Under the pieces are notes generated by a model that saw only the letters and a list, made by a program, of their open reading frames with translations, did no database searches and was not told the DNA's origin. From positions 198,039 to 262,038 of the forward strand of contig CAWCMA010000011.1 in the NCBI GenBank assembly GCA_963796565.1: a DNA stretch of 64,000 bases. The letters are read 5' to 3'. The stretch is from an uncultured delta proteobacterium. GTDB lineage: Bacteria; Desulfobacterota; Binatia; Binatales; Binataceae. Position numbers and translations under genes: made by a program. Of this stretch, positions 44,349 through 59,314 are shown one piece after another (positions within the stretch are counted from its first letter, which is position 1; every line of letters starts with the position of its first letter).

Positions 44349-44363
44349 TTCAGATCAGTTGAG

Positions 44364-46562
44364 CTACTCGAACGCGCCTATATCATTGCCAGCGTTTTGC
44401 GGCCGCGATTGGCCCGTGTAGTCGTGCGTGACCAGGGGTTCAGCGGTGCCAGCTCCGATCAGAGGCGAGCCGGCGCCAAGCGTGAAGTTGAGCCCCGAGG
44501 CGTTGACGAAATCCGGGTTTTCATTAAGGGACGGCGCGTTACTACCGTAGGTCCCGGGCTTAGACCCATCGGCCATCCACATGTCATTGCTTTCGGCCGT
44601 GTAAGTTGCCGAACCGCTATCGGCGGATAGGTAATTGTCGCCGCCGTTACCAACGTTGTAAAAGATGTTGTTGGCAATATCCGCATCAGTGTTCTCGATC
44701 AGGTCGACGCCCTCCTGGGTCACCGTATCGATGGTGTTGTTGTAAAATCTCACGTCGATGGGACCACCGCTGGTGCCGCCATCGACCAACAACCCTTGGA
44801 AGAGATTGATAAACACATTGTTCATGAACAGCAGGCCGCTGGTGGCGCCGGAACTCTGCTCGATCATGGCGATGTGATTGGTTCCGCCTCCGCTGTTGCC
44901 CGGCCCCGGGAGCTGGCACCAGTTGGAGTCGAACGTCATGTTACTGGCCGGTCCCCAACTCTGGAAGCAATCGGTATGCGGGTTGGTGTTGTAGGTTGTG
45001 CCGGGCAGGGGGATGTTCTCGATGGTGTTGTTCACAAACTGCCCATTGGTGCCGAAGAAGCGGAACCCGTCGGCGTCGGCCCCGTTACGCCTCGCGCATC
45101 CCGACGGCAACTGGTAGGTCCCATCGACCACGTTTCCCTTGACCAGGTAGCCGTCGCCGTCGAGTTGCGCGCCGGCCATCTCAGTGTGCAGGAACGTATT
45201 GTTAAGCAAGGTGGTGTTGGCGGAGGACGGTTCGACGTAAACTCCTTCTGCGCAAAGATTTTGAATCTGGTTGTTTTCTATTAAATTTCCGATGCCATCA
45301 ACATGAATGCCAATATCGCCCGGATCGCCATTGGCTTTGAAGTCGATCGTGAAACCGCTGATTACGATCCAGTTTGCAGCGACATCGAAACCCTTCATGG
45401 TCACTGCGCCGGTCGCCGACGGATCGATCTCGAAAGTGATCGGAGTCGACTGCTTGCCTGAAGTCGAGACCGACACGCGCTCGGCATAGGTGCCCGGTTC
45501 GACCAAGGTCGTATCACCCGGACGCATCGTCGCGGCGGCATGGCCTATCGTCAGCCAGGCCGAAGCAATTGATTGCCCGCTGCTCGAGTCGCTCCCGGTC
45601 GGCGCTACATAGTAGGTGTTGCCCGCAGTCGGGGTCGGTGTTGCCTTCGGGCTCGGCGTCGGCGTAGGAGCCGGTGCCGGGGTCGAGGTTGGTTTGGGCG
45701 TGGCTATCGGGGTCGAAGTTGGTGGAGGCGTTGCGATCGGCGTCGGAGCCGGTGACGATGTAGGTTTTGGCGTCGGTGGCGGAGTTGGAGAAGGAGCTGG
45801 AGTCGGGGTGGGTGTCGCGCCAGATGTTCCGGAGCTGGATAACAGAGCGATCAGCGCTCCGACGTTACTTGCACTGCGAGACGCGGTGCCGACCTCGTTG
45901 CCGGTCGCACCTCCCGTCGTGGCCGCGTCGCCCATCCCGATGCCGATGCCATAGCCGGTAGCCCTGAAGGACCAGCGCATCGCCATACTCGACGGCGGAT
46001 TGATCGGGGCGCCAGAGGCAAGACCAAAGAAACCCAGAAGTAGATATGTACTGCCGTTAGCCGGGATCGAAATCGACGGCGCGACCACGCTCGTCGAGCT
46101 TGGATTGGCTTCGCCGCCTTGAGCGGCGACCGGTGATGAGGTATTGACGCCGGCATAGTCCGCGATTCCGGCCGCGGCGTCATTGCCACCAGTGAAGGAC
46201 CAGGTGTAGTTGGACGGTTCGCTCGCGGGTGCATTCGAGACACGAGTATAGATCGCCTGCGCGATTGCGCCACCGTAGTTGTCGCGCCTTACCATGGTCC
46301 AGCCTGAGGGCGCGTGGATAGGCAGGTTCGTACCACCGCGGATAGCGATCTGTGCGACCAGTAGATCGCCGGCCGCAACAGTCGATGGCCGCGTCAGAGT
46401 AAGGTAATTGCCGCCACCGTTGGCGGTGCTCGTAGTGACGACCGTTCGAAGCGTTATTCCGGTCTGACCTGTGGACGATTGTGCAGGACTGCTCAACCCC
46501 ACGAGTAGGAGAATGAATCCGGCAAGAAGATAACCTCCCGCCACACCACGCCGATGGCCCAT
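44364..46562 (-). CDS. Secreted modular protein: signal peptide, beta-rich N domain, Pro/Thr linker, right-handed beta-helix with a choice-of-anchor-Q-like end
   Basis: Hydrophobic leader ending SPAQS; YYVAPTGSD...GDT..V.PGTY; repeated NN-turn strands; SPLIGAG...D..G..RP....DIGAFE. Confidence 0.8.
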   Translation of the reverse strand: MGHRRGVAGGYLLAGFILLLVGLSSPAQSSTGQTGITLRTVVTTSTANGGGNYLTLTRPSTVAAGDLLVAQIAIRGGTNLPIHAPSGWTMVRRDNYGGAIAQAIYTRVSNAPASEPSNYTWSFTGGNDAAAGIADYAGVNTSSPVAAQGGEANPSSTSVVAPSISIPANGSTYLLLGFFGLASGAPINPPSSMAMRWSFRATGYGIGIGMGDAATTGGATGNEVGTASRSASNVGALIALLSSSGTSGATPTPTPAPSPTPPPTPKPTSSPAPTPIATPPPTSTPIATPKPTSTPAPAPTPTPSPKATPTPTAGNTYYVAPTGSDSSSGQSIASAWLTIGHAAATMRPGDTTLVEPGTYAERVSVSTSGKQSTPITFEIDPSATGAVTMKGFDVAANWIVISGFTIDFKANGDPGDIGIHVDGIGNLIENNQIQNLCAEGVYVEPSSANTTLLNNTFLHTEMAGAQLDGDGYLVKGNVVDGTYQLPSGCARRNGADADGFRFFGTNGQFVNNTIENIPLPGTTYNTNPHTDCFQSWGPASNMTFDSNWCQLPGPGNSGGGTNHIAMIEQSSGATSGLLFMNNVFINLFQGLLVDGGTSGGPIDVRFYNNTIDTVTQEGVDLIENTDADIANNIFYNVGNGGDNYLSADSGSATYTAESNDMWMADGSKPGTYGSNAPSLNENPDFVNASGLNFTLGAGSPLIGAGTAEPLVTHDYTGQSRPQNAGNDIGAFE
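45627..45815 (-). repeat. Pro/Thr-rich low-complexity linker
   Basis: TPTPTPAPSPTPPPTPKPTSSPAPTPIATPPPTSTPIATPKPTSTPAPAPTPTPSPKATPTPT. Confidence 0.85.
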
Positions 46563-47019
46563 GTTGTTCCCCCTTGATTGTCGAATCGCCCCGCAACTTG
46601 TTCCGGCGAGAGTGAAGTCAGTTTCATTTGCACGCGCGGGCGGAGAAGCGTTCGCCTTGACGCCGATGGCAAATTTGCTGTTCGGCTTTTCCGGCGATGC
46701 CTGTTCAGCGCAGCCATCATTTCGCCATCGAAAGTTGCAGAATTATTCGCCCAGACCACTAACGGAATATTGCTGGCAGGGGAAGCTCTGAATTAAAAAA
46801 AACCAAGCCTTTTCACGTATTTAGGGCATATCCCGGTTATAATGACTTCTACCTTCTTCAATCCTTTTTTGAACGGCCGAAGCGTGACGCGTCAATGAAC
46901 TATCGCCAAATTTGAGCGTTAACCCGCGATGACTGGCAGGGCAGTAAGAGAGAACGAGCTCGCAGTTCAGTCCGCGAGTTTCGGCGGAGCGTGCTTACGA
47001 TCAACGATGAATCGCGAGA

Positions 47020-48459
47020 TCAGCGAGAATGAAACGCGCCGATATCGATGTGACCGAGCTGCTCTGGCGGACTACCAGGACTGTCGGCGCCGAGCCTTAC
47101 GCCCGCGCCGATTAGCGGCGATGAAGACTGCAGACGAAAATCGAGTGCCGACGGGTCGACGAATTTCGGATCGACCGTTAAATGACCGGCGCTGCTGCCG
47201 TAACTGCCGGGAGCGGCCCCGTCGCTCATGTACATGTCGTTCTTGCTGGCGACGAAATCAGCCGAAGCGGCGTCAACCGCCAGAAAACCATCCTTATGAC
47301 TGCCCACGTCGTAAAAGATGTTGTTGTCAATTTGTGCGCGCGGCGTGTTACGCAAAACCACCGCCTCCTGCTGCATGTTGACGACGGTATTGTTTATAAA
47401 TCGAAGGCCGGTGATCCCACCTGGAGCGCTACTGTAAACGATCAATCCCTGCCCCAGGTTGGAGAAGAAGTTGTTTATGAACAGTAGGTTCACCACCCGT
47501 CCGGACTTGTCTTCAATCATACCGATATGGTTGCTGGCCCCGCCTGAAGCTACGCTGGGAGCCGGCATCCGGCACCAGTTCGAATCGAAGGTCATATCGG
47601 CGGCAGGTCCCCAGCTCTGGAAACAATCCGTATGCGGATTGAGATTGTACTGGGTTCCGGGCACCGCAATGTCGTGAATGCGATTGCCGCGGAAAATGTG
47701 GCCGCGGCCGAAAAACCGAAAGCCGTCGGCGTCAGCGCGGTAACGCCGCGCACATCCGGGCGGATATTGGCGGGTGTCGGCAACGTCATTGTACTCGACC
47801 AGATTGCGCTCGCCGCCAATTTGCGCGCCGCTCATCTCGGCGCGGACTATGGTATTTCGGCTGATGATGTTACCGGACGCGGCGCTCGATGAGCCGCTGC
47901 CGTCGGTGGCAAAAATTCCCTCAAAGCAGAGGTCGTGAATACTGTTGCCACTCACGACATCGTGCGAACCGGTGAGGTAGACGCCAACTCCCCGCTCTTG
48001 CGTGGCGTTATGATTGGTTATTTCGAAGCCTGCGATCTCGACGTAGTTCCCTCGAATTTCAAAGCCCTGGACCACTACCTTTGCTCCCCTCGCCGCGATC
48101 AATTTGATTGGGTGTCCAGCCTCGCCGGAAACGTTGATAACGACCCGCTCATCGTAGGTGCCCGCTGCTACCAGCACCGTGTCGCCAGGCTTGGTTAGTT
48201 CGGCGGCGCGCTGTATCGTCCGCAAGGGAAGCTTCTGCGACAACCCAGGGTTAGAATCCGCACCAGATAACGCTACATAGAATGTTTTACCATCAGAGAC
48301 GAGGGCATTCCGGGCGACCACGGTCGTTTGATCCTGGCCCTCGGTGATGCGCTCCGTAGCAGTATAAAGACCGTTTCGCTGACGCAATTGCCTTGTTTTG
48401 GGGACGGCAGCCAGGCCGATGAGGGCGCATCCGACAGCGATCACAAAGCTCGGTTTCAT
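47020..48459 (-). CDS. Right-handed beta-helix protein with an N-terminal hydrophobic segment; paralog of the C-domain of 44364..46562
   Basis: FYVALSGADSNPG...GDTVLVAAGTY; shared ADADGFRFFG and NPHTDCFQSWGPA..MTFDSNWC; start at 48459 or 48474. Confidence 0.82.
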   Translation of the reverse strand: MKPSFVIAVGCALIGLAAVPKTRQLRQRNGLYTATERITEGQDQTTVVARNALVSDGKTFYVALSGADSNPGLSQKLPLRTIQRAAELTKPGDTVLVAAGTYDERVVINVSGEAGHPIKLIAARGAKVVVQGFEIRGNYVEIAGFEITNHNATQERGVGVYLTGSHDVVSGNSIHDLCFEGIFATDGSGSSSAASGNIISRNTIVRAEMSGAQIGGERNLVEYNDVADTRQYPPGCARRYRADADGFRFFGRGHIFRGNRIHDIAVPGTQYNLNPHTDCFQSWGPAADMTFDSNWCRMPAPSVASGGASNHIGMIEDKSGRVVNLLFINNFFSNLGQGLIVYSSAPGGITGLRFINNTVVNMQQEAVVLRNTPRAQIDNNIFYDVGSHKDGFLAVDAASADFVASKNDMYMSDGAAPGSYGSSAGHLTVDPKFVDPSALDFRLQSSSPLIGAGVRLGADSPGSPPEQLGHIDIGAFHSR

Positions 48460-48487
48460 AAAACTCACCACCAAATTCTGATTTCTC

Positions 48488-48502
48488 GCGACGCGATGCC
48501 AG
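48488..48502 (-). promoter_or_regulatory. Possible sigma54 -24/-12 element
   Basis: CTGGCATCGCGTCGC (GG-N10-GC) just upstream of the second beta-helix gene. Confidence 0.25.
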
Positions 48503-48661
48503 ATTCTCCAACAGGCATCATGCTTTGACCTCTTCTAAAATGAGGCTCGATCCGAACTAGTCGGCAATTTTCGTCATTTATTCGCTCATGACAGATCACA
48601 GATCAATGACTTGATGTTTAAATCATTGCCTTTCGCGCGCTATCTTTAATTTACCGCTCGT

Positions 48662-48690
48662 TTGACAACTTCAGACTCTTGACCCATTCT
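48662..48690 (+). promoter_or_regulatory. Probable sigma70-type promoter of the EPS export operon
   Basis: TTGACA-17 nt-CATTCT in an AT-rich divergent intergenic region. Confidence 0.5.
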
Positions 48691-48730
48691 AATCTAGCTG
48701 ATACTTACTTACCAATAGGTAATTCAGGTT

Positions 48731-49489
48731 ATGTTCTGCTATTTTAGGATTTGGTCATCATTGTTAATCGTTTTGTTGCTGTTAACCGTCATCATCGGTG
48801 GATGCTCCTCTGCCGGAGTCAGCTCAGACACGCGTCAGGCGGCGCCTGCAATCGGCACTCAGATTTCGCCCGAGACCTGTGCGGCAATGGCCAGCGCGGA
48901 TACTGGGACGCAAGACGAAGCCAGCTACCAAATTCAGCCGGGTGACGTGCTCGGTATTCGCTTCTATATGAGCCCGGAGCTTGACGATGAGCCTACAGTC
49001 CGTCCCGACGGCAAAATAACCGTACGTGAGGTAGGCGACGTGGTTGCGGCAGGACGGACGCCGGTGCAACTCGCGGCCGCTCTGGACCAAGCGTATTCGA
49101 CCGAGCTCAGGGCACCAGAGGCCACTGTACACGTCAAGGCCACGCCGAGTCGCCAGGTCTATGTGGACGGGCAGGTCTCGCATCCAGGAAGCTTCGCACT
49201 CGAGCCGCGGATGTCGGCGATACAGGCGGTTGCCCAGGCGGGTGGAGTGACCGAGGATGCGGCGCCCACGGCGGCGTTGCTCATACGGCGCGATCAATGC
49301 GGGCGGCCGAGCGGGATTGGATTCGATCTGGCGCGAGCAGAGAAACAGCCGGAAAGCGATCAGGACGTGCGGCTTTTGCCAGGCGATATCATCTACGTCC
49401 CGCGCAGCAAGATCAGCGAGATGGGTCTCTTCGTTAAGCACTACGTGAAGGACCTGTTGCCGGTGCAGCCGTATCTCCCGATTTTTTAG
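48731..49489 (+). CDS. Polysaccharide export lipoprotein (OPX/Wza family, short form)
   Basis: Lipobox IIGGC; PES motif YQIQPGDVLGI...VRPDGKITV..VGDV.AAG.T; one SLBB domain; C-terminal amphipathic helix ending LLP. Confidence 0.88.
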   Translation: MFCYFRIWSSLLIVLLLLTVIIGGCSSAGVSSDTRQAAPAIGTQISPETCAAMASADTGTQDEASYQIQPGDVLGIRFYMSPELDDEPTVRPDGKITVREVGDVVAAGRTPVQLAAALDQAYSTELRAPEATVHVKATPSRQVYVDGQVSHPGSFALEPRMSAIQAVAQAGGVTEDAAPTAALLIRRDQCGRPSGIGFDLARAEKQPESDQDVRLLPGDIIYVPRSKISEMGLFVKHYVKDLLPVQPYLPIF

Positions 49490-49506
49490 CGCAATGGAGT
49501 CTTCGT

Positions 49507-51021
49507 TTGCCTAACAATTTTGCAGCCTGGATCGAATTGCTGTTCAGACGATGGCATCAGTTCATCTACTGGACCGCCGTGGTGTTCGCGTCGGTGGTCG
49601 TAGTCACGATGCTGTGGCCGCCCTCCTATGTATCGAGCGCCAAGATTCTGGTGCAGGACGATCGCGCCCCGCTGCCCGCATCGCCGGCGATCGAAGCCGC
49701 GCCGCAAACCCTGCAGGGTTCCGTCGACTCCGCACCCGCGGAGCAGGACATGAACTCCGAGATGGAGCTGCTCACCAGCGCGTATCTCATCCAGCAGACC
49801 GTCGCAGGTCTCACGCCGGCCAAGAAGAGTCTTGCTGAACGCCTGATGGCGTCCATTTCGACATGGATGAATCTGCCCAACACTCTATACACCCTGCTAC
49901 ATACCGGGCCTGTGCCTGATGCGCAGCATCTTTGGATCGAAAAACTCGGCCGCCATCTCGACTGCACCTTGATCAAACGCTCGAACATAATCGAGGTAAC
50001 GTTTGCCAGCCGCAACGCGCAGTGGTCGCACGACTTTCTTGCGCACCTGCTGGACCATTACCTGCAACTTCGCGGAGAGATTTCCCACGACCCCCAGGCC
50101 GAGCGCTTCTTCATGCATCAGGCGGAATTGCTGCGGACGAAGCTGGTGCAATCGCAGAACAGGCTGCGCGCGCTGGAGGTTCAGACCGGGGTCACCGATT
50201 TCGACGAACAGCAAAAAGCGGTTGTCGATCAGCTCGCGTCCTTCCAGGCGAAATACCGCAAAAATCAATCAGACCTGGCGGGGACCGTCGAGCAGGTAGA
50301 CTATCTAAGCAAGGAAATTCAGAAATATCCGGAACGGATCGATACCGAGGCGAAAACGGTCCAGAACATCGCCTTGCAAACGTTGAAACCACAAGTACTA
50401 AAGCTCGAAACCGAGAAGGCCGAGTTGCTAAGCCGCTATCTGCCGGATAGCAAGCGAATCCAGTCGATCGATGCCGAATTGCAAGCGGCGCAGACCCTGC
50501 TGCGACACGAAAACACTCGTGACGTGCAGGAAGTCAGCACCAGCATAAACCCCATCTGGCAAACGCTATCCAGTACGCTGGCCCAGGCCAAGGTCACTGC
50601 CGCCGCGCTGACGGCGAGCCAGACCGAACTGGCCCAACAGATCGCGATCTATCAGCAGCAGTTGAAGGACGTCGGCGACAACGGGGTCGAGATCGAACAG
50701 TTACGCCAACAGGTCGACACCGACAAGGAAATATACTTGTCCTACCTGCGTAAAGGAGAAGAGGCGCGTGCGGCCGCTGCACTCAATTTGAATAAGATCC
50801 TCGACGTGAATGTCGCCGAACCGCCGACGCTGCCAGTCGAACCAAGCTTTCCCAAAATGTCTATCAATCTGGTTGCCGGACTTCTGCTCGCCTGGGCTAT
50901 AGCCTTCGCGATCATATATCAGGCCGAGATGCGCGATCCGCGGATTTACTCGCCGGAAATGGTAAGCGAGGTCAGCGGTGTGCCGACCATAGCGGTCGTC
51001 TCGATCGCCATCAGAGAATAG
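49507..51021 (+). CDS. Polysaccharide co-polymerase / chain-length determinant (GumC/Wzc N-part)
   Basis: Two TM segments, PPSYVSSAKILV, long coiled coil, VAEPPTLPVEPSFP before TM2, RDPRIYSPE..S...GVPTIAVV. Confidence 0.88.
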   Translation: MPNNFAAWIELLFRRWHQFIYWTAVVFASVVVVTMLWPPSYVSSAKILVQDDRAPLPASPAIEAAPQTLQGSVDSAPAEQDMNSEMELLTSAYLIQQTVAGLTPAKKSLAERLMASISTWMNLPNTLYTLLHTGPVPDAQHLWIEKLGRHLDCTLIKRSNIIEVTFASRNAQWSHDFLAHLLDHYLQLRGEISHDPQAERFFMHQAELLRTKLVQSQNRLRALEVQTGVTDFDEQQKAVVDQLASFQAKYRKNQSDLAGTVEQVDYLSKEIQKYPERIDTEAKTVQNIALQTLKPQVLKLETEKAELLSRYLPDSKRIQSIDAELQAAQTLLRHENTRDVQEVSTSINPIWQTLSSTLAQAKVTAAALTASQTELAQQIAIYQQQLKDVGDNGVEIEQLRQQVDTDKEIYLSYLRKGEEARAAAALNLNKILDVNVAEPPTLPVEPSFPKMSINLVAGLLLAWAIAFAIIYQAEMRDPRIYSPEMVSEVSGVPTIAVVSIAIRE

Positions 51022-51024
51022 TCA

Positions 51025-52425
51025 ATGTATTACTCGTACTTCGGTCTGAATGCCGCGCCATTTCAGCTCACCCCTACCCAGGGTATGCCATTTCTCGGGC
51101 GTACGCATCGCGAGGCCCTGGCCGCGCTCGAATGGGGAATGACTGATCCGAACGGGTTTGCGCTTCTGATCGGCGAGCCCGGGACTGGCAAAACCTCGCT
51201 CATCCTGACTCTGACGGAGGCGGATCACGCGGGCATCCGCGTGATTCATATCAATCGGCCGATAGCATTCAAGGAAATCGTACACTTGATCGCAAGCGAG
51301 GCTGGCATCGCGGAATGCGACGAGCCCTCGATGGAATTCATGCAGTCGTTCCGCGAACGTATGGCTTTCCAGAAGCTCCGGCCTGTAATCATCATCGACG
51401 AAGCGCAAGGCCTGGCGGACGAGACCCTCGAAAGCCTGCGGCTGTTAGCCAATGATGCCGCGGACGGACGGTTTGCCTTGCAGATGATTTTGGTCGGTCA
51501 GCCCGATCTGCTGAATCGGCTCAAACGCTCACCACTGCGAGCGTTGGACCAGCGTATCAGCACGCGCGCCGTGCTGAAGCGTCTCGAGCGTAGCGAGGTC
51601 CACGATTATATCGATCATAGACTGCAGATTTGTGGCTCCAGCGCGGCGCAACTTTTCAGCGCCGCCGCGATGCGCGCTCTGACACGGCGCGGGTCACGCA
51701 TTCCACGCGAAATCAATTTGCTCTGTCATAATTCGCTCATTCTTGCGTACGCCGCCGGGCGGGACCGTGTGGACGCATCCATGGTGCGAGCGGCGGCCGC
51801 GGAATACGAGACCCAGGCCCGGTCGATAGGCCGCTCCGGCTTGGGCGGCTTCTTCGACCGTCTGCGCAATTTTCAGAATTTGTCCCGCGGCGGTTTGGTA
51901 ATAGCTACATTGCTGGGCGGAGCGGCATTAGGCTGGCCGCTGGCCGCGCATACGCGGGCGGCGATGCGTCCACGTTTCTCGAAACCGAGCGTGGCCGCCG
52001 AGGTTACTCTCGAAACGCCGGCGAACGACAGTGCGCGCGGTGAGGTTGCGCGGGTCGATCAGAGCGACGGAGATCGGGCTGCCCAGGCCGTTACTCCCAC
52101 AGATCGACCCGCTCAGTCCGTAGTCGCCCCTGATCAGTCCGCGCAGCCCGTTGCTGCTTTGGGTCAGCCTGCCCAGCCCGTTACGCCCACAGCGCTGGAA
52201 CGGCCGGCACAGCCTCAATCCCCGAATTCGACTTCATCGAACACCAGTCCGCTCAGGGCGGTCGTGATCGAAGCCGGCGACAACCTCAGCAGCATTGCAG
52301 AGCAATACCTCGGTTCGAAGGAACCAGCCGCAATTCAGCGGCTGGTCGCGGCGAATCCGCAGATATCGGATATGAACCTGATTCATCCTGGCGAAATTGT
52401 TCATTTGCCTTCCGGGGACAAGTAG
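51025..52425 (+). CDS. ExeA/GspA-family AAA+ ATPase with a TM segment, repeat linker and C-terminal LysM domain
   Basis: MYYSYFGLNAAPF, Walker A GEPGTGKT, Walker B IIIDEAQ, ILVGQPDL, G.PREIN.LC; LysM VIEAGDNLSSIA...NP.I.D.NLIHPGEIVHLP. Confidence 0.88.
   Translation: MYYSYFGLNAAPFQLTPTQGMPFLGRTHREALAALEWGMTDPNGFALLIGEPGTGKTSLILTLTEADHAGIRVIHINRPIAFKEIVHLIASEAGIAECDEPSMEFMQSFRERMAFQKLRPVIIIDEAQGLADETLESLRLLANDAADGRFALQMILVGQPDLLNRLKRSPLRALDQRISTRAVLKRLERSEVHDYIDHRLQICGSSAAQLFSAAAMRALTRRGSRIPREINLLCHNSLILAYAAGRDRVDASMVRAAAAEYETQARSIGRSGLGGFFDRLRNFQNLSRGGLVIATLLGGAALGWPLAAHTRAAMRPRFSKPSVAAEVTLETPANDSARGEVARVDQSDGDRAAQAVTPTDRPAQSVVAPDQSAQPVAALGQPAQPVTPTALERPAQPQSPNSTSSNTSPLRAVVIEAGDNLSSIAEQYLGSKEPAAIQRLVAANPQISDMNLIHPGEIVHLPSGDK
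52081..52218 (+). repeat. Degenerate 30-nt (10-aa) tandem repeat in the ATPase linker
   Basis: AQAVTPTDRP / AQSVVAPDQS / AQPVAALGQP / AQPVTPTALERP / AQPQ. Confidence 0.8.
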
Positions 52426-52445
52426 CCGGATGGAGGCCCAACGTC

Positions 52446-53237
52446 GTGTCTAAATTCTTCGAAGCGCTGAATCGTACTTTCACCGAACACGAGACTCCTG
52501 AGCCCTTGGTGTCGGCACGCGCGGCCGCGAAGCCGTCGACCGTGCGTGTCTTGAGTCCGGCATTTCAGCCCGGCACGCCTGCGACGGTTCGCGATGAGGC
52601 TGCGGTAGTCTCCGCGCTTTCGCGCATGGAATCGATTCGGCGGGTGACGGAAACGCTGGCGCCGGCCGCGAGATACAGCGGCGATTTACGCGTAGTGGTC
52701 GCGGGCTGCGGCTCCGGCGATGGCGCCTCCAGCGTGGCCGGCGCAATCGCGGTCGACCTGAGTCAGCGGCTGGGAGTGCGCACACTGCTGGTCGACGGCA
52801 ATCTGCGGCGTTCCCGCATCGTCAAAATATTCGGCCAGCAGGAACGTGCGCTGCCCGAAGCAACGACTGCGGGCAAGGTACTGATGCGCGAGACCAAATG
52901 GCTGCAGCTCGACGTCGCGAGTTTCAGCTTTCCCTCCGACAAAATCGAGCAGACGAGACTGTTCGAAGAATTGTCGCAGTGCATGGTCAAATTTCCGGTT
53001 TCCGTAGTCGATATGGGCGCCGTCAGGCTCGATGGCAGCCTGCTACCTCTGGTCAGGTCGGACGATCCTGTGCTGGTGGTGGTGCGCGCGGGTCATACCG
53101 AGCGCAAGGACCTGAGCACGACCGCCAACGTATTCGCGACTTTGAGCAACTCGATTAGGGGCATCATCTTGAACGCCGCGGTGCCAGCGACGCCGAGCTG
53201 GATTCGGCGCCTGCTTGCACATGGGAGAACCGCATGA
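52446..53237 (+). CDS. CpsD/CapB-family BY-kinase homolog, degenerate (probable pseudokinase)
   Basis: MSKFFEAL start; P-loop GCGSGDGASS; LLVDGNLRR; VVDMGA; LVVVRAGHT; GIILN; no C-terminal Tyr cluster. Confidence 0.8.
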   Translation: MSKFFEALNRTFTEHETPEPLVSARAAAKPSTVRVLSPAFQPGTPATVRDEAAVVSALSRMESIRRVTETLAPAARYSGDLRVVVAGCGSGDGASSVAGAIAVDLSQRLGVRTLLVDGNLRRSRIVKIFGQQERALPEATTAGKVLMRETKWLQLDVASFSFPSDKIEQTRLFEELSQCMVKFPVSVVDMGAVRLDGSLLPLVRSDDPVLVVVRAGHTERKDLSTTANVFATLSNSIRGIILNAAVPATPSWIRRLLAHGRTA

Positions 53238-54334
53238 GAACAGCGTCACAAAGTCTTATTGTAAGTAATCGCTTCGAACAGCCGGACAGCCAGCCCGATC
53301 AATTGCGCGGCATGGCGGTGGTGGGACTCGGCTACTGGGGTCCGAACTGGGTGCGCAATTTGACCCAGGTGCGCGCTGCGAAACGGCTCGTCTGCTGCGA
53401 TCTATCGCCCGAGCGCCGTGACCGGATTGGCCAGCTCTATCCGAATGTCGAGCTCAGTTCGCAATTCGACGAAATCCTGGCTGATCCTGATATCGAAGGG
53501 GTCATCGTCGCCACCCCGGTCAATACGCACTACGAAATCGCCCGGCGCTGCCTGGACCGCGGCAAGTCAGTGCTGGTCGAAAAGCCTCTGGCTACTTCGC
53601 AGCTGCACGCGTCCGACCTGGTACAGCGCGCACGCGACAACGGCCAAGTACTGATGGTCGGACATACCTTTGAATACAGCGCTCCGGTACTGAAGATCCG
53701 CAAGATTCTCGAGTCCGGCGAGCTCGGTCAGGTCCTGTACGTGAGCTCGACTCGCGCCAATCTCGGTCTCTTCCAGCATCATGTCAATGTGGTATGGGAC
53801 CTCGCCACTCATGACATATCGATTATTCTGATGCTGCTCGGCCTGATGCCGCAGCAGGTGAGTTGCCAGGGACAGAGCCACTACAAGACGGGCGAGGAGG
53901 ATGTCGCTTTGCTCACTCTTCGCTTCACCAACGACATAATGGCGTTCGTGCACGTGAGCTGGCTCGATCCGAACAAGATTAGGCAAATGACCATTGTCGG
54001 CTCGCGCAAGATGCTCGTTTACGATGACACCGCGGTCCAGGAAAAAATACGCATCTACGACAAGGGAGTGAATGTCAGCCGGTACTATGATACCTACGGC
54101 GACTTTCAGTTCTCCTACCGCTACGGCGACATTACCATACCGCGAATCGAAGAGAGCGAGCCGCTCAAATCCGAGTGCGAACACTTCGTCGAATGCATAC
54201 GCAACAGCAGCGTTCCGGCTACCGACGGAATAAATGGACTGCGCGTGGTCAGCGTGCTCGAAGCCGCGAACAAATCAATGCGCCGCGGCGGCCAGCCGAC
54301 GCCGATCGAAATCCCGATGGGTTGGCAGAAATGA
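53234..54334 (+). CDS. Gfo/Idh/MocA NAD-dependent sugar-nucleotide oxidoreductase (WbpB/WlbA-like role)
   Basis: GLGYWG, VEKPL, VGHTFEY, DLATHD. Confidence 0.88.
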   Translation: MRTASQSLIVSNRFEQPDSQPDQLRGMAVVGLGYWGPNWVRNLTQVRAAKRLVCCDLSPERRDRIGQLYPNVELSSQFDEILADPDIEGVIVATPVNTHYEIARRCLDRGKSVLVEKPLATSQLHASDLVQRARDNGQVLMVGHTFEYSAPVLKIRKILESGELGQVLYVSSTRANLGLFQHHVNVVWDLATHDISIILMLLGLMPQQVSCQGQSHYKTGEEDVALLTLRFTNDIMAFVHVSWLDPNKIRQMTIVGSRKMLVYDDTAVQEKIRIYDKGVNVSRYYDTYGDFQFSYRYGDITIPRIEESEPLKSECEHFVECIRNSSVPATDGINGLRVVSVLEAANKSMRRGGQPTPIEIPMGWQK

Positions 54335-54858
54335 AGACACGCAACTTTGGTCCGTACAGCAGCGTGGCCGAAGACGTCCGCCTGGGAGAGCGCGTGCGCC
54401 TGAGCGCATTCGTGAATCTCTATGGATGCGAGGTCGGCGACGACTCACGGTTGGGGGCGTTCGTCGAGGTTCAGCGCGACGCGACAATCGGCCGGCGCTG
54501 CAAAATTTCAAGCCACTCGTTCATATGCAGCGGCGTGAAGATCGAGGATGAAGTCTTCATCGGTCACGGTGTCATCTTCATCAACGACCGGCGTCCGCGC
54601 GCCACAAAGGAAAACGGAGCGCTCCAGACCGAGGATGACTGGGAGTTGGAGCACACACTGGTGCGGCGCGGCGCTTCGATCGGTAGTGGCGCGATCGTCA
54701 TGTGTGGAGTGGAGATCGGCGAGGGTGCACTGGTCGGCGCCGGAGCGCTGGTCACGCATGACGTGGCCCCCGGCGCGACAGTAATCGGCAGCCCGGCGCG
54801 TGTTCGAATGATCGCCAGAGCAGAAGGGGGGGTGTCAGGTGAGAATCAAATTCGTTGA
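54331..54858 (+). CDS. Hexapeptide-repeat N-acetyltransferase (WbpD/WxcM-like)
   Basis: IGRRCKISSHSFIC.GV.IEDEVFIGHGVIFIND..PRA; GASIGSGA; GSPAR; ATGA overlap. Confidence 0.88.
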   Translation: MKTRNFGPYSSVAEDVRLGERVRLSAFVNLYGCEVGDDSRLGAFVEVQRDATIGRRCKISSHSFICSGVKIEDEVFIGHGVIFINDRRPRATKENGALQTEDDWELEHTLVRRGASIGSGAIVMCGVEIGEGALVGAGALVTHDVAPGATVIGSPARVRMIARAEGGVSGENQIR

Positions 54859-55975
54859 TCTTGCGGCGCAGGACGCCGAAATATCCGATGACGTTGAGCG
54901 GCGCTTTAGCGAAGTCAAGGACGCGACGGCGTACGTTGGCGGTCCCACGGTGGCGGCCTTCGAGCGCGAATTTGCGGAGTTTCTGGGCGTCCGCAACGTT
55001 GTGGGAGTCGCCAGCGGCACCGACGCTCTGCGCCTGGCTCTGGCCGCAATGGGTATCGGCGCCGGTGACGGAGTAATCACGTCACCGATGACCTTCATTG
55101 CGACGGTCGCGGCAATAGTGCAGAGCGGAGCGCACCCGGTCTTCGTCGATATTGACTATGAAACCGGAAATCTCAGCGTCCCGGCCCTGCTCCAGCATCT
55201 CGATACCCATCGGTCCGAGTCTTCGAAGGGCGTTCGAGCGATTCTGCCGGTCGACCTCTATGGTCTGCCGGCGCCGATGCCAGAATTGCGGGAGATAGCA
55301 AATCGCCATCATCTTGGACTGCTGGAGGATTCCTGCCAGGCGCACGGCGCGAGAATCAGGATGGGCGACCAATGGATGATGTCGGGCGACGGGGTCGCGG
55401 ATGCGAGTTGTTTCAGCTTTTATCCGGGCAAAAATCTGGGTGCGTGGGGCGACGGCGGGGCGGTAACGAGCAACGACGACGCGCTCGCCGGCAAGGTGCG
55501 CAAGCTGCGCGATCACGGTCGGGTGTCCCATTACGAACATAGCGAGATCGGCTGCAACTCCAGGCTCGATTCACTTCAGGCGGCGGTGCTTTCGTCCAAG
55601 CTTTCGCGGCTGGCTGATTGGAACCGTCGCCGCCGCACAATCGCCGCCTTGTATGGTGAGCTGTTGGCAGGCACCGATCTCGAGCTGCCGCGCGAGGCCG
55701 AGGGCTTCGAGTCCTGTTATCATCTTTACGTGGTGCGCACCGCGCATCGAGATCGGATTGGACAGGCGCTGACGGAGGCGGATATCGCCTGGGGCATTCA
55801 CTATCCGATCCCGCTTCATTTGCAGCCGGCTTGCCGGTTTCTCGGCTACCAGCCCGGAGATCTGCCCGCGGCGGAAAAATTTGCCGCCCGCGTAATCTCG
55901 TTGCCGATGCATCCACATCTTCGCGATGAAGAAGTCGAGGAGATTGCGCAGGTCGTTCGCAGCGCGATCGCATAA
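54839..55975 (+). CDS. DegT/DnrJ/EryC1/StrS sugar aminotransferase (WbpE/WlbC-like role)
   Basis: SGTDAL, EDSCQAHGA, SFYPGKNLGAWGDGG (PLP Lys), NSRLD, HYP.PLHLQ. Confidence 0.92.
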   Translation: MRIKFVDLAAQDAEISDDVERRFSEVKDATAYVGGPTVAAFEREFAEFLGVRNVVGVASGTDALRLALAAMGIGAGDGVITSPMTFIATVAAIVQSGAHPVFVDIDYETGNLSVPALLQHLDTHRSESSKGVRAILPVDLYGLPAPMPELREIANRHHLGLLEDSCQAHGARIRMGDQWMMSGDGVADASCFSFYPGKNLGAWGDGGAVTSNDDALAGKVRKLRDHGRVSHYEHSEIGCNSRLDSLQAAVLSSKLSRLADWNRRRRTIAALYGELLAGTDLELPREAEGFESCYHLYVVRTAHRDRIGQALTEADIAWGIHYPIPLHLQPACRFLGYQPGDLPAAEKFAARVISLPMHPHLRDEEVEEIAQVVRSAIA

Positions 55976-55984
55976 TAGGCAGTC

Positions 55985-57424
55985 ATGTTCGCAGGCGAAC
56001 AGCGCAGGCAGAAAGCCATTTTTGCGATTGTAGACGCGATCGCGATACTGATCGCGTTTCGTGGCGCGCTCGCGCTGCATGATCCATATCACCTTATGAC
56101 GGCGCGGCTCCATCAAGCCAACCCGTCGCTAGTCTACGGCGCCATCATCGTGCTCGTTGGCATGTGGCTGATGGTATTTCACGCCTGCGATCTATACCGC
56201 TTTAGAAGCGGCGGCGTGCGTGAACTGGCGCACATCGTTAAGGCTTGCATGATCGCAACCGCGCTAAGCCTGTTGCTTGGGTACTTCGCACATCTGACTG
56301 ACGTTCCGCGATTGCTCATTGGGACCGGATTTCTGCTCAGTATCGGCCTGGTGGTGCTCGGCCGCACGGTTACGCGCGATCTGATCCGATCGCTGTATGC
56401 CGATCCCAAGATTACCATCCCGCTCGCGATCGTCGGTTTCACGCCGCTGGCTCACTTCCTGTGTGATCAGATTGTTGAGGATCTGAGTCAATACGAATTT
56501 CTCGGGTTTTTCGATGATCATGCGCTCGCGAATGCGGCCCATCGAGGTTTCCCGGTGCTTGGGGCGACGACGAGGATCGGAACGCTCAGGGCGGCGCATC
56601 CGAATCTCGAAGTCATTATCGTGTGCGCCGATGAAGCGGACGAGGACTGCCGCAACGTAATCCGGACGTGCGAGGCAAGCCGCGTTCGATGGCGAATGGT
56701 GCCGCCCCTTTGGCGCTCGATACCTGGGGCTCTGCGCTTCGATCTAATTGGCGGCGTCCCGCTGCTCGGTCCCAGTTCATCGAACATCGAAGGGCTCAAC
56801 TTTATTCTCAAGCGGGTCTTCGATGTTGTGGTCGCGGGCGCCGCGCTGGCCGTCGCGCTACCCGTGATGCTGCTGGTGAGCGTTGCAATCTGGATGTTTG
56901 ACGGACGGCCGATTCTGTTTCGCCAGAGGCGCGTCGGAATCCGCGGCGAAACCTTCGAATTGTTGAAGTTTCGAACCATGCGTCCGGGCAGCGACAGCAT
57001 CCACCGCGAATACGTGCGTAACTGGATAACTGTAAATGGCGATGCCAAACTCAGTGACTCCGATGGCACAAAAGTCTTCAAACTGGTGAACGACCCGCGC
57101 GTGACCGGGATTGGACGGATACTGCGCCAGTTTTGTCTCGACGAAATGCCACAGTTGATAAACGTGCTGCGCGGCGAGATGAGCCTGGTGGGGCCGCGAC
57201 CTGCACTGCCCTACGAGATCGAGTTATATCAGGATTGGCACAAGCGCAGACTCGAAGGTTTGCCGGGAATCACCGGGCTTTGGCAAGTGGGAGGGCGTAA
57301 CCAGCTCGGCTTCGACGAGATGGTACGACTGGACATCGAATACCTTGATGGCTGGAGCTTAAGCGAAGATCTTAGAATTCTGCTCCGAACAATTCCCGCG
57401 GTATTGTACGGGTCCGGTTATTGA
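55985..57424 (+). CDS. Priming polyprenyl glycosylphosphotransferase (WcaJ/WbaP family)
   Basis: N-terminal TMs; KRVFD, FRQRRVG, KFRTM, DPRVT, LDEMPQ, GEMSLVGPRP, PGITGLWQV. Confidence 0.93.
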   Translation: MFAGEQRRQKAIFAIVDAIAILIAFRGALALHDPYHLMTARLHQANPSLVYGAIIVLVGMWLMVFHACDLYRFRSGGVRELAHIVKACMIATALSLLLGYFAHLTDVPRLLIGTGFLLSIGLVVLGRTVTRDLIRSLYADPKITIPLAIVGFTPLAHFLCDQIVEDLSQYEFLGFFDDHALANAAHRGFPVLGATTRIGTLRAAHPNLEVIIVCADEADEDCRNVIRTCEASRVRWRMVPPLWRSIPGALRFDLIGGVPLLGPSSSNIEGLNFILKRVFDVVVAGAALAVALPVMLLVSVAIWMFDGRPILFRQRRVGIRGETFELLKFRTMRPGSDSIHREYVRNWITVNGDAKLSDSDGTKVFKLVNDPRVTGIGRILRQFCLDEMPQLINVLRGEMSLVGPRPALPYEIELYQDWHKRRLEGLPGITGLWQVGGRNQLGFDEMVRLDIEYLDGWSLSEDLRILLRTIPAVLYGSGY

Positions 57425-57563
57425 TCACTAAGGTTGTTTGGGTCGAAGGTAGAGCAGGGTCAGGTCGGAAACTGCAATTAGCTAAACGCATGCGGTATGT
57501 AACGATAGTCGCCGCTTACAAGGCGGCTGTCGACTTAGTTCTGAAGACGGAGGAATCGAGAAT

Positions 57564-58379
57564 ATGAATCGAGGCAAGCCACTAGTCGTTGGTCTTGGTG
57601 AAGTGGGCGGGGCGCTCAGGCAGGTCCTCGAGGCGAATGGTCCTGTGTGGCTCCTTGACGTCGAACCAGTTGAAATAACCGGACCGATCAGCGTGATGCA
57701 CGTATGCTTCCCGTTTCAGCAACGACGAGGCTTCGTGCCGGCGGTGGTTGAGCGGATCAAGCAGTTAGCACCGTCCCTGACCGTAATCAACAGCACCGTA
57801 TTGCCTGGCACTACTCGATCCATCGCTTCGGCCACTGGCTCTGCGGTTGCATACAGCCCAATCAGAGGCAAGCACGCAAAGATGGTCGAAGACCTGCGAC
57901 ACTATACCAAGTTCGTCGCTTCTCCCGATCCTGAGACAGCGCAGCGGGCCGAAGAGCATTTCCGTTCGCTCGGCATGAAAACCTCGATTATGGCCGAGCC
58001 CGAAACGCTGGAACTCGCTAAACTAGGCGAGACCACCTATTTTGGGATCCAAATTGCCTTCGCGCAGGAATTGAATCGCTATGCCGAGCGTGTCGGCGGA
58101 CAGTATTCGGAGGCGGTGAAGTTTTTCGAAGAAGTCGATTTCTTGCCCCGGGTAAACTATTTCCCGGGTTTCATTGGCGGACATTGTGTGATTCCGAATA
58201 TCGATTTGCTGCTGGAGATAGAAGGCTCTCCTCTGCTGGACGCTATTTTGGAATCGAATGTGCGACGCGCGGAGGAATTGAAAAAGAAGACGACCAACAA
58301 CGGAACCAATAAATCAATTCGGCGCATCGGTCTGAACGGTATTTCGGATAGACTCGCCGACCCATCCCACGAAAAGTAG
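57564..58379 (+). CDS. Short UDP-glucose/GDP-mannose dehydrogenase-like protein lacking the C-terminal domain
   Basis: GLGEVG, NSTVLPGTT, AKLGETTY, IAFAQEL, PGFIGGHC; 271 aa. Confidence 0.7.
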   Translation: MNRGKPLVVGLGEVGGALRQVLEANGPVWLLDVEPVEITGPISVMHVCFPFQQRRGFVPAVVERIKQLAPSLTVINSTVLPGTTRSIASATGSAVAYSPIRGKHAKMVEDLRHYTKFVASPDPETAQRAEEHFRSLGMKTSIMAEPETLELAKLGETTYFGIQIAFAQELNRYAERVGGQYSEAVKFFEEVDFLPRVNYFPGFIGGHCVIPNIDLLLEIEGSPLLDAILESNVRRAEELKKKTTNNGTNKSIRRIGLNGISDRLADPSHEK

Positions 58380-58426
58380 GCGGGCATTCCCGAGCAATCC
58401 AGCGATCCGAGATCTGGCGGCGGGTC

Positions 58427-58729
58427 CTAATGATGTCGCTGAGTTTCGGACGGATCGACGCGGCAACGATTGAGAAATTGCTCGACATCACTCCTGCGGA
58501 ACCGCTTGACGCGTCCGATCGAGTGATACGGCAGCTCACCTCTACGAGCCAAGCGATAAATCGTCATTTCAGTGATCTGGAGCAGACTGGCCAGCTGCTT
58601 TGCGGTCAAGAACAGTGACGTACCGAGAAAGCCATTGACATCAGAATCCACTTCGGCCGCCTTTGGGCGCTGTGAGCCACCCGAGCCCTCATTGACGCGA
58701 TCGTGATCGTCATGTGTCTTTGCCATCAT
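58427..58729 (-). CDS. Excisionase/MerR-like (HTH_17) DNA-binding protein
   Basis: LTAKQLASLLQITEMTIYRLARRGELP...IGRVKRFRRSDVEQFL; start at 58729 or 58765. Confidence 0.82.
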   Translation of the reverse strand: MMAKTHDDHDRVNEGSGGSQRPKAAEVDSDVNGFLGTSLFLTAKQLASLLQITEMTIYRLARRGELPYHSIGRVKRFRRSDVEQFLNRCRVDPSETQRHH

Positions 58730-58830
58730 TGCACCCTTCCATCCTTCCTGCGAGCCAGAATTCATTCTTCGTTCATATCGAGTGATTTGTCAACCTTCGG
58801 GATGATTTGACTGCACCGGAGGCCTGAAAG

Positions 58831-58845
58831 GCCATAGAATGCCAG
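58831..58845 (-). promoter_or_regulatory. Possible sigma54 -24/-12 element upstream of the HTH gene
   Basis: CTGGCATTCTATGGC (GG-N10-GC). Confidence 0.25.
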
Positions 58846-58930
58846 CATTGGGCTCGTTTTCACGGAGATGACATGCGTTGAAGCTCAGGATTCAGCAAAT
58901 CTAGGCAATTTTTTGCTATATTTACTTATC

Positions 58931-58959
58931 TTGACCCAATTCCGGATTTCGGTAATTAT
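58931..58959 (+). promoter_or_regulatory. Possible sigma70-type promoter for the RHH/ligase genes
   Basis: TTGACC-17 nt-AATTAT. Confidence 0.4.
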
Positions 58960-59031
58960 GAACGGTGACGGCAGGGGATCTCTCAACGGCTGATATCAAT
59001 CCTTAGCGGGCGTGGACTCTTTAAAGAAGAG

Positions 59032-59304: not shown

Positions 59305-59314
59305 CGATTCCTAA

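What the first reader, a model, noticed from the sequence alone, without database searches (positions are those of the whole stretch)
44364..48459. Tandem beta-helix paralogs with an identical putative active site but opposite charge and different targeting
Seen: both share LC.EG, EM.GAQ, GCARR..ADADGFRFFG and NPHTDCFQSWGPA..MTFDSNWC, including four conserved Cys. The first is acidic and Asn/Thr-rich, with a cleavable-looking leader and extra N-terminal modules. The second is Arg-rich, with a hydrophobic N-segment followed by basic residues and no clear AxA site. Known: the N-terminal YV...G.D...G...GDT....GTY pattern is PL9/DUF1565-like, and clustered Asp/His residues on beta-helix grooves form lyase/hydrolase sites; EPS loci often carry a degrading enzyme (AlgL, PslG). 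Inference: a membrane-anchored clearing or chain-length enzyme plus a released matrix-remodelling or adhesin form, possibly a new CAZy subfamily.
Basis: partly seen in the sequence, partly recalled or inferred. Interest (0 to 1): 0.62.

Follow-up and report, generated by a model that had tools for sequence, protein, structure and literature searches.

The report
Paired secreted beta-helix enzymes beside EPS locus
Two neighbouring genes in an uncultured soil bacterium (Binataceae) encode exported beta-helix proteins from a large, uncharacterised family that most likely cut or trim the cell's own exopolysaccharide. This is an ordinary kind of system built from a family nobody has studied.

Summary
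Two minus-strand genes, P1 (44364-46562, 732 aa) and P2 (47020-48459, 479 aa), share a 420-residue right-handed beta-helix domain at 46% identity. All the quoted motifs are present.

"Opposite charge" is wrong. Both catalytic domains are acidic (pI 4.1 and 5.9), and no family member examined is basic.

The four conserved Cys behave as two co-varying pairs, most simply two structural disulfides rather than catalytic residues.

D243/D245/R248 and H276/D278/Q281 (P2 numbering) are 92-100% conserved in 64 relatives. From the model's strand register they stack on adjacent coils. This was not measured on coordinates.

The fold, N-cap and C-cap resemble PL9, GH120 and GH136. No characterised family aligns over the motif region, and no Lys is conserved, so the family does not meet PL9.

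The family is large (over 12,000 clusters at E<=1e-30) and its members are mostly Sec-exported. It often occurs in tandem arrays or as fused double domains. In several phyla it lies next to Wzy-type glycan loci.

P1 carries an undescribed mobile beta-sandwich module on a Pro/Thr linker. Orthologue sequences do not support a membrane anchor for P2.

Best reading (about 0.5): a pair of EPS-processing depolymerases. Whether they act as lyases or hydrolases is unresolved.

The parts
44364..46562 (-). P1: 732-aa long paralog (signal peptide, beta-sandwich module, Pro/Thr linker, beta-helix domain)
   Evidence: ORF and translation. Pfam Beta_helix 6e-8 and NCBIfam choice_anch_Q 36 bits against a 25-bit cut-off. 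dN/dS about 0.23 against the sister-genome orthologue.
46476..46562 (-). P1 Sec-type signal peptide (residues 1-27/29, ...GLSSPA|QS)
   Evidence: Read from the sequence. The top hydrophobic 15-mer starts at residue 7. No SignalP run was possible.
45828..46478 (-). P1 N-terminal beta-sandwich module (residues 29-245, conserved PSGW)
   Evidence: No Pfam hit at E<=10. AF2 pLDDT 93.6, all-beta. Best PDB fold match has TM <=0.27. Found fused to subtilases, LRR, Calx-beta, FN3, LamG and PA14 proteins.
45624..45827 (-). P1 Pro/Thr-rich linker (residues 246-313)
   Evidence: 27 Pro and 19 Thr in 68 residues.
44367..45623 (-). P1 beta-helix domain (residues 314-732), pI 4.07, net charge -31
45051..45077 (-). 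P1 DADGFRFFG motif (D496, D498, R501)
   Evidence: Translation check. Family conservation.
44961..44984 (-). P1 NPHTDCFQ motif (H529, D531, Q534)
   Evidence: Translation check. Family conservation.
46563..47019 (-). 457-bp spacer between P2 and P1 (51% GC, contains a T-run)
   Evidence: No promoter or terminator signal above the shuffled expectation. No Rfam hit.
47020..48459 (-). P2: 479-aa short paralog
   Evidence: ORF and translation. Pfam DUF1565 1e-16, Beta_helix 3e-13, Chondroitinas_B 5e-8. AF2 model pLDDT 86. dN/dS about 0.25.
48403..48459 (-). P2 N-terminal hydrophobic export segment (residues 1-19, MKPSFVIAVGCALIGLAAV)
   Evidence: Whether it is a cleavable signal, an anchor or a lipobox is unresolved.
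48292..48402 (-). P2 basic, low-confidence linker (residues 20-56)
   Evidence: pLDDT below 50 for residues 1-54. Residues 1-56 have pI 9.8.
47023..48291 (-). P2 beta-helix domain (residues 57-479), pI 5.9, net charge -6
47707..47733 (-). P2 DADGFRFFG motif (D243, D245, R248)
47617..47640 (-). P2 NPHTDCFQ motif (H276, D278, Q281)
48460..48730 (.). 271-bp AT-rich (41% GC) divergent intergenic region between P2 and the EPS export operon
   Evidence: The same divergent layout is kept in the sister genome L013.
48731..60880 (+). Adjacent Wzy-type, XrtA-like EPS locus, the presumed source of the substrate. Genes in order: Wza-like exporter, chain-length determinant, ATPase-LysM, kinase-like protein, WbpB/D/E-like trio, priming transferase, mini NDP-sugar dehydrogenase, Wzy_C protein.
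   Evidence: Pfam and NCBIfam scans.

Best explanation
P1 and P2 are two anciently diverged, exported members of a large uncharacterised right-handed beta-helix family. The family is distantly related to PL9, GH120 and GH136 through its N-cap and C-cap.

I read them as glycan-cleaving enzymes that process the exopolysaccharide made by the adjacent Wzy-type locus. Possible roles are chain trimming, release, or clearing of mis-exported polymer.

The proposed active site is a grid on the PB1 face of two successive coils: D243-x-D245...R248 above H276-x-D278...Q281. It is flanked by E180, E208 and E/D292 and by long T3 loops, one of which appears stapled by a C178-C236 disulfide.

My preferred chemistry is cation-assisted beta-elimination. 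The DxD/HxD carboxylates would hold Ca2+, and the basic residue at 248 (R, sometimes H or K) would act as the base. I put this at about 0.4 and a GH28/GH87-like Asp-triad hydrolase at about 0.3.

P2 is the bare catalytic domain, probably periplasmic or cell-proximal. P1 adds a mobile beta-sandwich binding module on a Pro/Thr linker and would act on the assembled matrix.

Shown: paralogy, family-wide conservation, predicted fold, Cys co-variation, export signals, genomic linkage, purifying selection. Inferred: spatial clustering of the motifs, catalysis, substrate and cellular location.
For: - Paralogy: 46% identity, E 2e-119.
- Conservation: D243, D245, H276 and D278 are 97-100% conserved, R248 92% and E/D292 98% in 64 relatives that share 32-55% identity. 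Among complete domains of 145 representative clusters the signature D-D-[R/H/K]-H-D predominates.
- Model: the AF2 model (pLDDT 86) is an 11-coil beta-helix. Its DSSP register puts D243/H276 and D245/D278 at equivalent positions of consecutive coils, with R248/Q281 three residues on.
- Fold neighbours are all glycan-cleaving enzymes: Pel9A (E 2e-10), GH136, GH120, PL9 rhamnogalacturonan lyase, PL6, the Vibrio EPS lyase RbmB, PL31 and GH87.
- DxD motifs bind the catalytic cations of classical pectate lyases, and Arg is the base in PL1 enzymes and VexL (PMC6003464). The PL9 Ca-1 site lies on coils 5 and 6 (PMC6627557).
- C178/C236 co-occur in 34 rows and are both absent in 30, never singly. C279/C296 co-occur in 57 of 64 rows. 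This fits two disulfides and hence an extracytoplasmic protein.
- Most members have Sec signal peptides.
- The binding-module, PT-linker, catalytic-domain layout is that of secreted carbohydrate-active enzymes.
- Linkage: the whole arrangement is kept in a congeneric genome. Glycan genes lie within 10 kb in about 25 of about 80 loci from Binatia, Acidobacteriota, Chloroflexota and Planctomycetota. One Binatia EPS locus is bracketed by two paralogs.
- dN/dS is about 0.23-0.25 for both genes.
Against: - There are no biochemical data for any family member, and no characterised family aligns over the motif region.
- No Lys is conserved, so the PL9, PL6 and RbmB type of base is absent.
- All domains are acidic, which is unusual for enzymes that bind polyanions unless a cation bridges them.
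- The only NDP-sugar dehydrogenase in the locus is a 271-aa mini form, so uronic acid in the substrate is uncertain.
- About two thirds of loci show no homologue of this window's EPS genes within 10 kb.
- A conserved acidic ladder could equally be a purely structural metal site.
Confidence: 0.5

Rival explanations
1. The proteins are depolymerases, but for foreign glycans: nutrition or competition in soil, such as plant, fungal or neighbours' EPS. On this reading their position beside the EPS locus is incidental or reflects a shared accessory island.
For: Tandem arrays of 2-5 diverged copies, swappable N-terminal binding modules and PT linkers are typical of catabolic enzyme batteries. Most loci lack homologues of this window's EPS genes nearby. 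The family is patchy within the genus, present in 9 of 41 relatives.
Against: No transporter, SusCD-like genes or sugar-catabolic genes lie next to the pair in the window. Linkage to Wzy_C, WbpB/D/E-like and priming-transferase genes recurs across phyla, and P2 shares a divergent promoter region with the export operon in two genomes.
Confidence: 0.15
2. The proteins are polymer-modifying enzymes rather than cleaving ones. One option is an AlgG/AlgE-like C5-epimerase acting on a uronic-acid polymer; another is a CE8-like esterase.
For: The [N/D]-P-H-x-D motif resembles, from my memory, the DPHD/DPHE motif of alginate epimerases. Epimerases and lyases share proton-abstraction chemistry. AlgG is a periplasmic beta-helix protein encoded in its EPS operon. 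CE8 esterases use two Asp plus Gln and Arg on a beta-helix (established knowledge, not tested here).
Against: No AlgG/AlgE or CE8 model or structure appears among the Pfam, NCBIfam or PDB sequence hits, or in the top 50 fold matches. The motif has an extra residue relative to DPHD. Having two or more diverged copies per locus is not typical of epimerases.
Confidence: 0.12
3. The proteins are non-catalytic surface or matrix proteins (adhesins or scaffolds). On this reading the conserved acidic ladder is a structural Ca2+ site.
For: The C-terminal choice-of-anchor-Q domain is typical of surface proteins. The profile also hits giant multi-repeat proteins of 2,000-7,700 aa. Fused double-domain relatives often have one domain without the His, for example DDRSD, DDRQD and GALVC. 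P1 carries a binding-type module.
Against: Conservation of 97-100% for a D-x-D / H-x-D / basic-residue grid across 32-55% identical sequences from many phyla is more typical of catalysis. Both window copies keep the full signature. Neither protein has a sorting signal after the C-cap.
Confidence: 0.13

Closest known systems
PL9 pectate / rhamnogalacturonan lyases (Pel9A, PDB 1RU4; BT4170, PDB 5OLQ)
   Same: Best fold match (1RU4: E 2e-10, TMq 0.56, TMt 0.66). The N-terminal cap motif and the C-terminal cap (...SP.I.AG...D.GAF) align by HMM. Both are beta-helices of about 10-11 coils. Conserved Asp residues fall on roughly coils 5-6, where PL9 holds Ca-1 (PMC6627557).
   Different: Identity is only 15-19%. 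PL9 models (Pfam Pel9A-like; NCBIfam PelN and PelX) match only residues of about 47-109. No Lys is conserved anywhere, whereas PL9 uses a coil-7 Lys as base. This family also has extra T3 loops and inferred disulfides.
GH120 beta-xylosidase XylC (PDB 3VST) and GH136 lacto-N-biosidases (PDB 5GQC, 7V6M)
   Same: XylC is the best PDB sequence hit for the family profile (E 7e-23). The DUF1565 plus Beta_helix annotation is shared with GH120 (PMC12229491). Fold E-values are 1e-9 to 1e-10.
   Different: Only the N-cap aligns well. XylC Asp382 aligns to a non-conserved column. This family has no inserted beta-sandwich. The DxD/HxD motif region has no aligned counterpart.
VexL (PL1), the periplasmic Vi-antigen depolymerase encoded in the Burkholderiales capsule locus (PMC6003464)
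   Same: The concept matches: a Sec-exported, disulfide-bearing beta-helix enzyme encoded inside the biosynthesis locus of its own substrate. VexL uses an Arg as catalytic base.
   Different: There is no detectable sequence or top-50 fold relation. VexL lacks DxD motifs, is metal-independent and has an electropositive groove. VexL is single-copy.
RbmB, the Vibrio cholerae VPS lyase (PDB 9OZD; PMC12993940)
   Same: It is a beta-helix matrix-degrading enzyme encoded with the matrix genes. Fold match E 2e-6, TMt 0.64.
   Different: Identity is 12-13%. RbmB uses K227 activated by E253 as base, and no equivalent Lys is conserved here.
WceF of Pantoea stewartii (PMC7949094), and AlgL/PslG-type locus-encoded glycanases
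   Same: These are EPS-cluster-encoded, exported enzymes that modify the biofilm glycan or control chain length.
   Different: WceF is tailspike-like and trimeric; AlgL and PslG have other folds. None was tested for homology here.

Membership tests
PL9 polysaccharide lyases | Pel9A-type N-cap plus right-handed beta-helix fold | tested here: met
   Foldseek 1RU4 E 2e-10. The family profile aligns to Pel9A residues 11-171 and 277-397.
PL9 polysaccharide lyases | Lysine catalytic base on coil 7 | tested here: not met
   No alignment column reaches 60% Lys in 64 sequences. Coil 7 (residues 279-311) conserves Q281, W283, E/D292, N294 and C296 only.
PL9 polysaccharide lyases | Ca-1 site formed by Asp residues on coils 5 and 6 | tested here: inconclusive
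   D243/D245 and D278 lie on successive coils at about the right position by my coil count. No residue-level superposition was possible because coordinates are not exposed.
PL9 polysaccharide lyases | Full-length match to family models | tested here: not met
   Pfam PF22842 matches residues 56-102 only, at 21 bits against a 25-bit cut-off. NCBIfam PelN scores 36 against 740 and PelX 35 against 1490.
GH120 | Catalytic Asp382/Glu405 (numbering recalled from the XylC literature) and an inserted beta-sandwich domain | tested here: not met
   Asp382 in WLDWEAQG aligns to a variable column. The model is a single uninterrupted beta-helix.
GH136 | Catalytic Asp pair and dependence on an LnbY-type chaperone | not tested
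   Only the N-cap of 7V6M aligns by sequence. Fold E is about 1e-10 at 14-18% identity.
PL1 (PelC / VexL type) | Arg catalytic base, with DxD cation sites in the metal-dependent members | tested here: inconclusive
   An invariant DxD plus a 92% conserved Arg three residues later are present. No PL1 model or structure is among the hits.
PL6 | Lys base and Arg acid with a Ca site | tested here: not met
   Only residues of about 80-179 match the chondroitinase B model and PL6 chains. No Lys is conserved.
AlgG/AlgE mannuronan C5-epimerases | DPH[D/E] motif on a CASH-type beta-helix | tested here: inconclusive
   The family has [N34/D24]-P59-H63-x-D64 of 64 rows, one residue longer than DPHD. No epimerase appears among the sequence hits or top-50 fold hits.
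choice-of-anchor Q domain (NF041518) | C-terminal domain scoring above the 25-bit cut-off | tested here: met
   P1 scores 36.2 bits (met). P2 scores 17 bits, below the cut-off. Neither has a sorting signal after the domain.
Bacterial lipoprotein / signal-anchor (claimed for P2) | Lipobox Cys at a suitable distance, or an uncleaved hydrophobic helix | tested here: inconclusive
   AVGC with Cys11 is kept in four orthologues but lies very near the N-terminus. The orthologues have AAA|K and VLA|K signal-peptidase-I-like sites. No SignalP or TM predictor was available.

The most novel reading that the evidence does not exclude
The DxD-G-x-[R/H/K] ... [N/D]-P-H-x-D-x-F-Q beta-helix proteins are a new, very widespread CAZy-level family of glycan-cleaving enzymes whose catalytic apparatus differs from PL9, PL6, PL1 and GH28. 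They would work as recurrent 'short plus long' pairs. These pairs are sometimes fused, and in fusions one domain is sometimes degenerate. Together they would form a dedicated two-component EPS-processing module in Binatia, Acidobacteriota, Chloroflexota, CPR bacteria and archaea.
Probability: 0.3. Interest if true: 0.6.

Novelty: new variant of a known kind. Interest (0 to 1): 0.38.

Why it matters
Locus-encoded depolymerases such as AlgL, PslG, VexL, RbmB and WceF set the chain length, release and turnover of bacterial matrix polymers, and they are used as biofilm-dispersing tools. This family is large: more than 12,000 clusters at 50% identity score E<=1e-30. It is common in the dominant uncultured soil phyla and has no characterised or solved member that aligns over its conserved motif region.

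Characterising one member would annotate thousands of hypothetical proteins and could found a new lyase or hydrolase family. It would also give a first handle on the unknown exopolysaccharides of Binatia and Acidobacteriota. The biology itself, a glycanase next to an EPS locus, is not surprising.

Tried and rejected
- **Rfam:** an E-value scan of 43800-49000 found nothing.
- **Promoter and terminator scan:** counts were not above the shuffled expectation, so I make no claim about transcription units beyond the 457-bp spacer.
- **PHROGs:** only the N-cap resembles phage tail-fibre or tailspike families. The viral fold search gave generic beta-helix tail proteins at 10-18% identity. This is no evidence of phage origin.
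- **PDB 9RX2** ('parallel beta-helix repeat protein', E 5e-17): it aligns over the motif region but has N and I at the DxD positions and R at the His position, so it is not the same family. No paper mentions it.
- **P2 as a lipoprotein:** the AVGC Cys sits at residue 11 when counted from the better-supported ATG, which is too close to the N-terminus, so I set this aside as unlikely.
- **'Opposite charge' as a functional clue:** rejected on the numbers.
- **Recent tandem duplication:** rejected. P1 and P2 are not sisters in the tree and are separated by long branches.
- **Transcription:** one soil 'RNA-Seq' run holds 90-99% similar short contigs over parts of both genes. These come from relatives rather than this strain, and DNA carry-over cannot be excluded, so the evidence is weak.
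- **Measuring distances between motif residues:** not possible, because model coordinates are not exposed to the Python box.
- **dbCAN, SignalP and TM predictors:** not available.

Full report
**What is there.**
Two intact ORFs lie on the minus strand. P1 is at 44364-46562 (732 aa). P2 is at 47020-48459 (479 aa from an ATG preceded by GGTGAG; a TTG lies 15 nt upstream). A 457-bp spacer of 51% GC separates them.

BLASTP aligns P1 314-732 with P2 57-477 at 46% identity, E 2e-119. DADGFRFFG and NPHTDCFQ are letter-identical in the two proteins. The genome holds only these two copies.

**The family.**
A word-indexed search found about 70 full-length relatives at 30-98% identity. All are unnamed or annotated 'hypothetical' or 'right-handed beta-helix'.

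In an alignment of 64 relatives the strongest polar conservation is as follows (P2 numbering):
- D243 in 62 of 64 rows
- D245 in 63
- R248 in 59
- H276 in 63
- D278 in 64
- Q281 in 61
- E/D292 in 63
- N294 in 64
- E180 acidic in 53
- E208 as Glu in 37

An exhaustive profile search of 1.84 billion representatives gave 12,537 clusters at E<=1e-30. Among the best 145, complete domains mostly read D-D-[R/H/K]-H-D at positions 243, 245, 248, 276 and 278. No alignment column conserves Lys.

**Cysteines.**
C178 and C236 are present together in 34 rows and absent together in 30, never singly. C279 and C296 co-occur in 57 of 64 rows. This pattern is best explained by two disulfides. The 'four conserved Cys' are therefore structural and indicate an extracytoplasmic protein. 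They are not active-site residues.

**Fold and relatives.**
The AF2 model of P2 (pLDDT 86, pTM 0.85) is a beta-helix spanning residues 58-445. Residues 1-54 have low confidence.

The best PDB fold matches are Pel9A (E 2e-10), GH136 lacto-N-biosidases, GH120 XylC, the PL9 rhamnogalacturonan lyase, PL6 lyases, the Vibrio VPS lyase RbmB, PL31 and GH87. All are at 11-19% identity with TM about 0.5.

By sequence, Pfam, NCBIfam and PDB matches cover only the N-cap, generic PbH1 repeats and the C-cap. The motif region aligns to no characterised protein. 9RX2 aligns there but lacks the DxD and the His. XylC's Asp382 falls on a variable column.

The family is therefore PL9-like in architecture. It fails the PL9 test on the Lys base and on full-length model matches.

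**Putative site.**
I laid the sequence on the model's strand register.
- C178, E208, D243 and H276 occupy one ladder position on four successive coils.
- E180, S210, D245, D278 and H311 occupy the next position.
- R248 and Q281 lie three residues into PB1.
- Long T3 loops (228-242 and 263-275) flank this face. The first is probably tied down by the C178-C236 pair.

This is the usual location of beta-helix active sites. However, I could not measure distances, because coordinates are not exposed. Clustering is an inference.

DxD motifs coordinate the cations of classical pectate lyases, and Arg is the base in PL1 enzymes and VexL (PMC6003464). PL9 holds Ca-1 on coils 5 and 6 (PMC6627557). An Asp triad plus His is also the design of the inverting GH28 and GH87 hydrolases (my knowledge, not tested here). 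The lyase-versus-hydrolase question stays open.

**Charge and targeting.**
The P1 helix domain has pI 4.07 (net -31). The P2 helix domain has pI 5.9 (net -6 to -7). The 64 family domains span pI 4.05-6.7 with a median of 4.9. 'Opposite charge' is therefore not correct.

P1 has a classic Sec leader. P2 has MKPSFVIAVGCALIGLAAV followed by a basic, disordered 37-residue linker. Its orthologues read ...GFAAA|K and ...AVLA|K, and most family members have plain signal peptides directly before the helix. A cleavable signal is at least as likely as an anchor for P2.

**P1 extra module.**
Residues 29-245 have no Pfam match even at E<=10. They fold confidently (pLDDT 93.6) into a beta-sandwich. No PDB neighbour exceeds TM 0.27.

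The module recurs fused to subtilases, LRR, Calx-beta, FN3, LamG and PA14 proteins.

A metagenomic protein, P0028, has a helix domain essentially identical to that of P1. It carries an Ig-like module instead, joined at the Pro/Thr linker. The N-modules are therefore swappable.

**Context and distribution.**
P2 is divergent from a Wzy-type, XrtA-like EPS locus. In order, the locus encodes:
- a Wza-like exporter
- a chain-length determinant
- an ATPase-LysM protein
- a kinase-like protein
- a WbpB/D/E-like trio
- a priming transferase
- a mini NDP-sugar dehydrogenase
- a Wzy_C protein

.

The whole layout is kept in a congeneric genome (L013). The closest named relatives are Candidatus Binataceae or 'delta proteobacterium' MAGs.

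Within 10 kb of family members in about 80 loci, homologues of the window's EPS genes occur as follows:
- mini dehydrogenase: 19 loci
- Wzy_C: 14 loci
- GT4: 9 loci
- priming transferase: 8 loci

These loci include Acidobacteriota, Chloroflexota and Planctomycetota. In one Binatia genome two paralogs bracket the same type of EPS locus (L036 and L034).

Nineteen loci hold 2-5 same-strand copies. Another short-plus-long pair occurs in L088. Fused double or triple domains also exist, and several have one domain lacking the His.

Only 9 of 41 relatives carry the family. The region has lower GC than the rest of the window (0.58 against 0.63). This is an accessory locus.

**Evolution.**
P1 and P2 fall in one well-supported 25-member clade but are not sisters. 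The duplication is old. dN/dS against the sister genome is about 0.25 for P2 and 0.23 for P1.

**Verdict.**
It is unsupported in its details: the anchor-versus-released split, and the Cys as part of the active site.

The most likely function is cleavage of the cognate EPS, with the mechanism unresolved. Rival readings are foreign-glycan catabolism, polymer modification, and non-catalytic surface proteins.

This is a new variant of a known kind of system, and of moderate interest.

Noticed in passing
window 45828-46478 (-): The P1 N-terminal domain is a mobile beta-sandwich module with an invariant PSGW motif. It has no Pfam model and no PDB fold neighbour above TM 0.27. Elsewhere it is fused to subtilases, LRR, Calx-beta, FN3, LamG and PA14 proteins, sometimes in two copies.
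   Followed up: partly
metagenomic protein P0028 compared with window 44367-45623: P0028 has a beta-helix domain essentially identical to that of P1. It carries an Ig-like N-terminal module instead of the beta-sandwich, joined at the Pro/Thr linker. This looks like a recent module swap.
   Followed up: partly
representative proteins P0153, P0154, P0155, P0160, P0202, P0221: These are single polypeptides with two or three family domains. In several, one domain keeps D-D-R/H/K-H-D while the other has lost the His (DDRSD, DDRQD, DDRPD, GALVC). This suggests active plus degenerate pairs.
   Followed up: partly
window 57564-58379 (+): A 271-aa mini NDP-sugar dehydrogenase matches only positions 100-322 of the 413-position model. 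It is conserved at 50-65% identity next to Wzy_C in many loci from several phyla, so it is not a local truncation.
   Followed up: partly
window 42881-44038 (-): An LssY_C-domain gene lies between P1 and the DAO oxidoreductase. It is absent from the otherwise syntenic sister genome (L013).
   Followed up: no
window 58427-58765 (-) and 59032-59304 (+): A small excisionase/MerR-like HTH ORF and a 90-aa ORF sit inside the EPS locus between the mini dehydrogenase and the Wzy_C gene. They may be a remnant of a mobile element or a local regulator.
   Followed up: no
window 44000-60900: GC is about 0.58 here against 0.63 for the first 44 kb. The P2/Wza intergenic region is 41% GC. Together with the patchy distribution in the genus, this suggests an accessory, possibly transferred, glycan island.
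   Followed up: partly
window 52446-53237 (+): The BY-kinase-like protein scores far below the family cut-offs (36 bits against 108).
   Followed up: no
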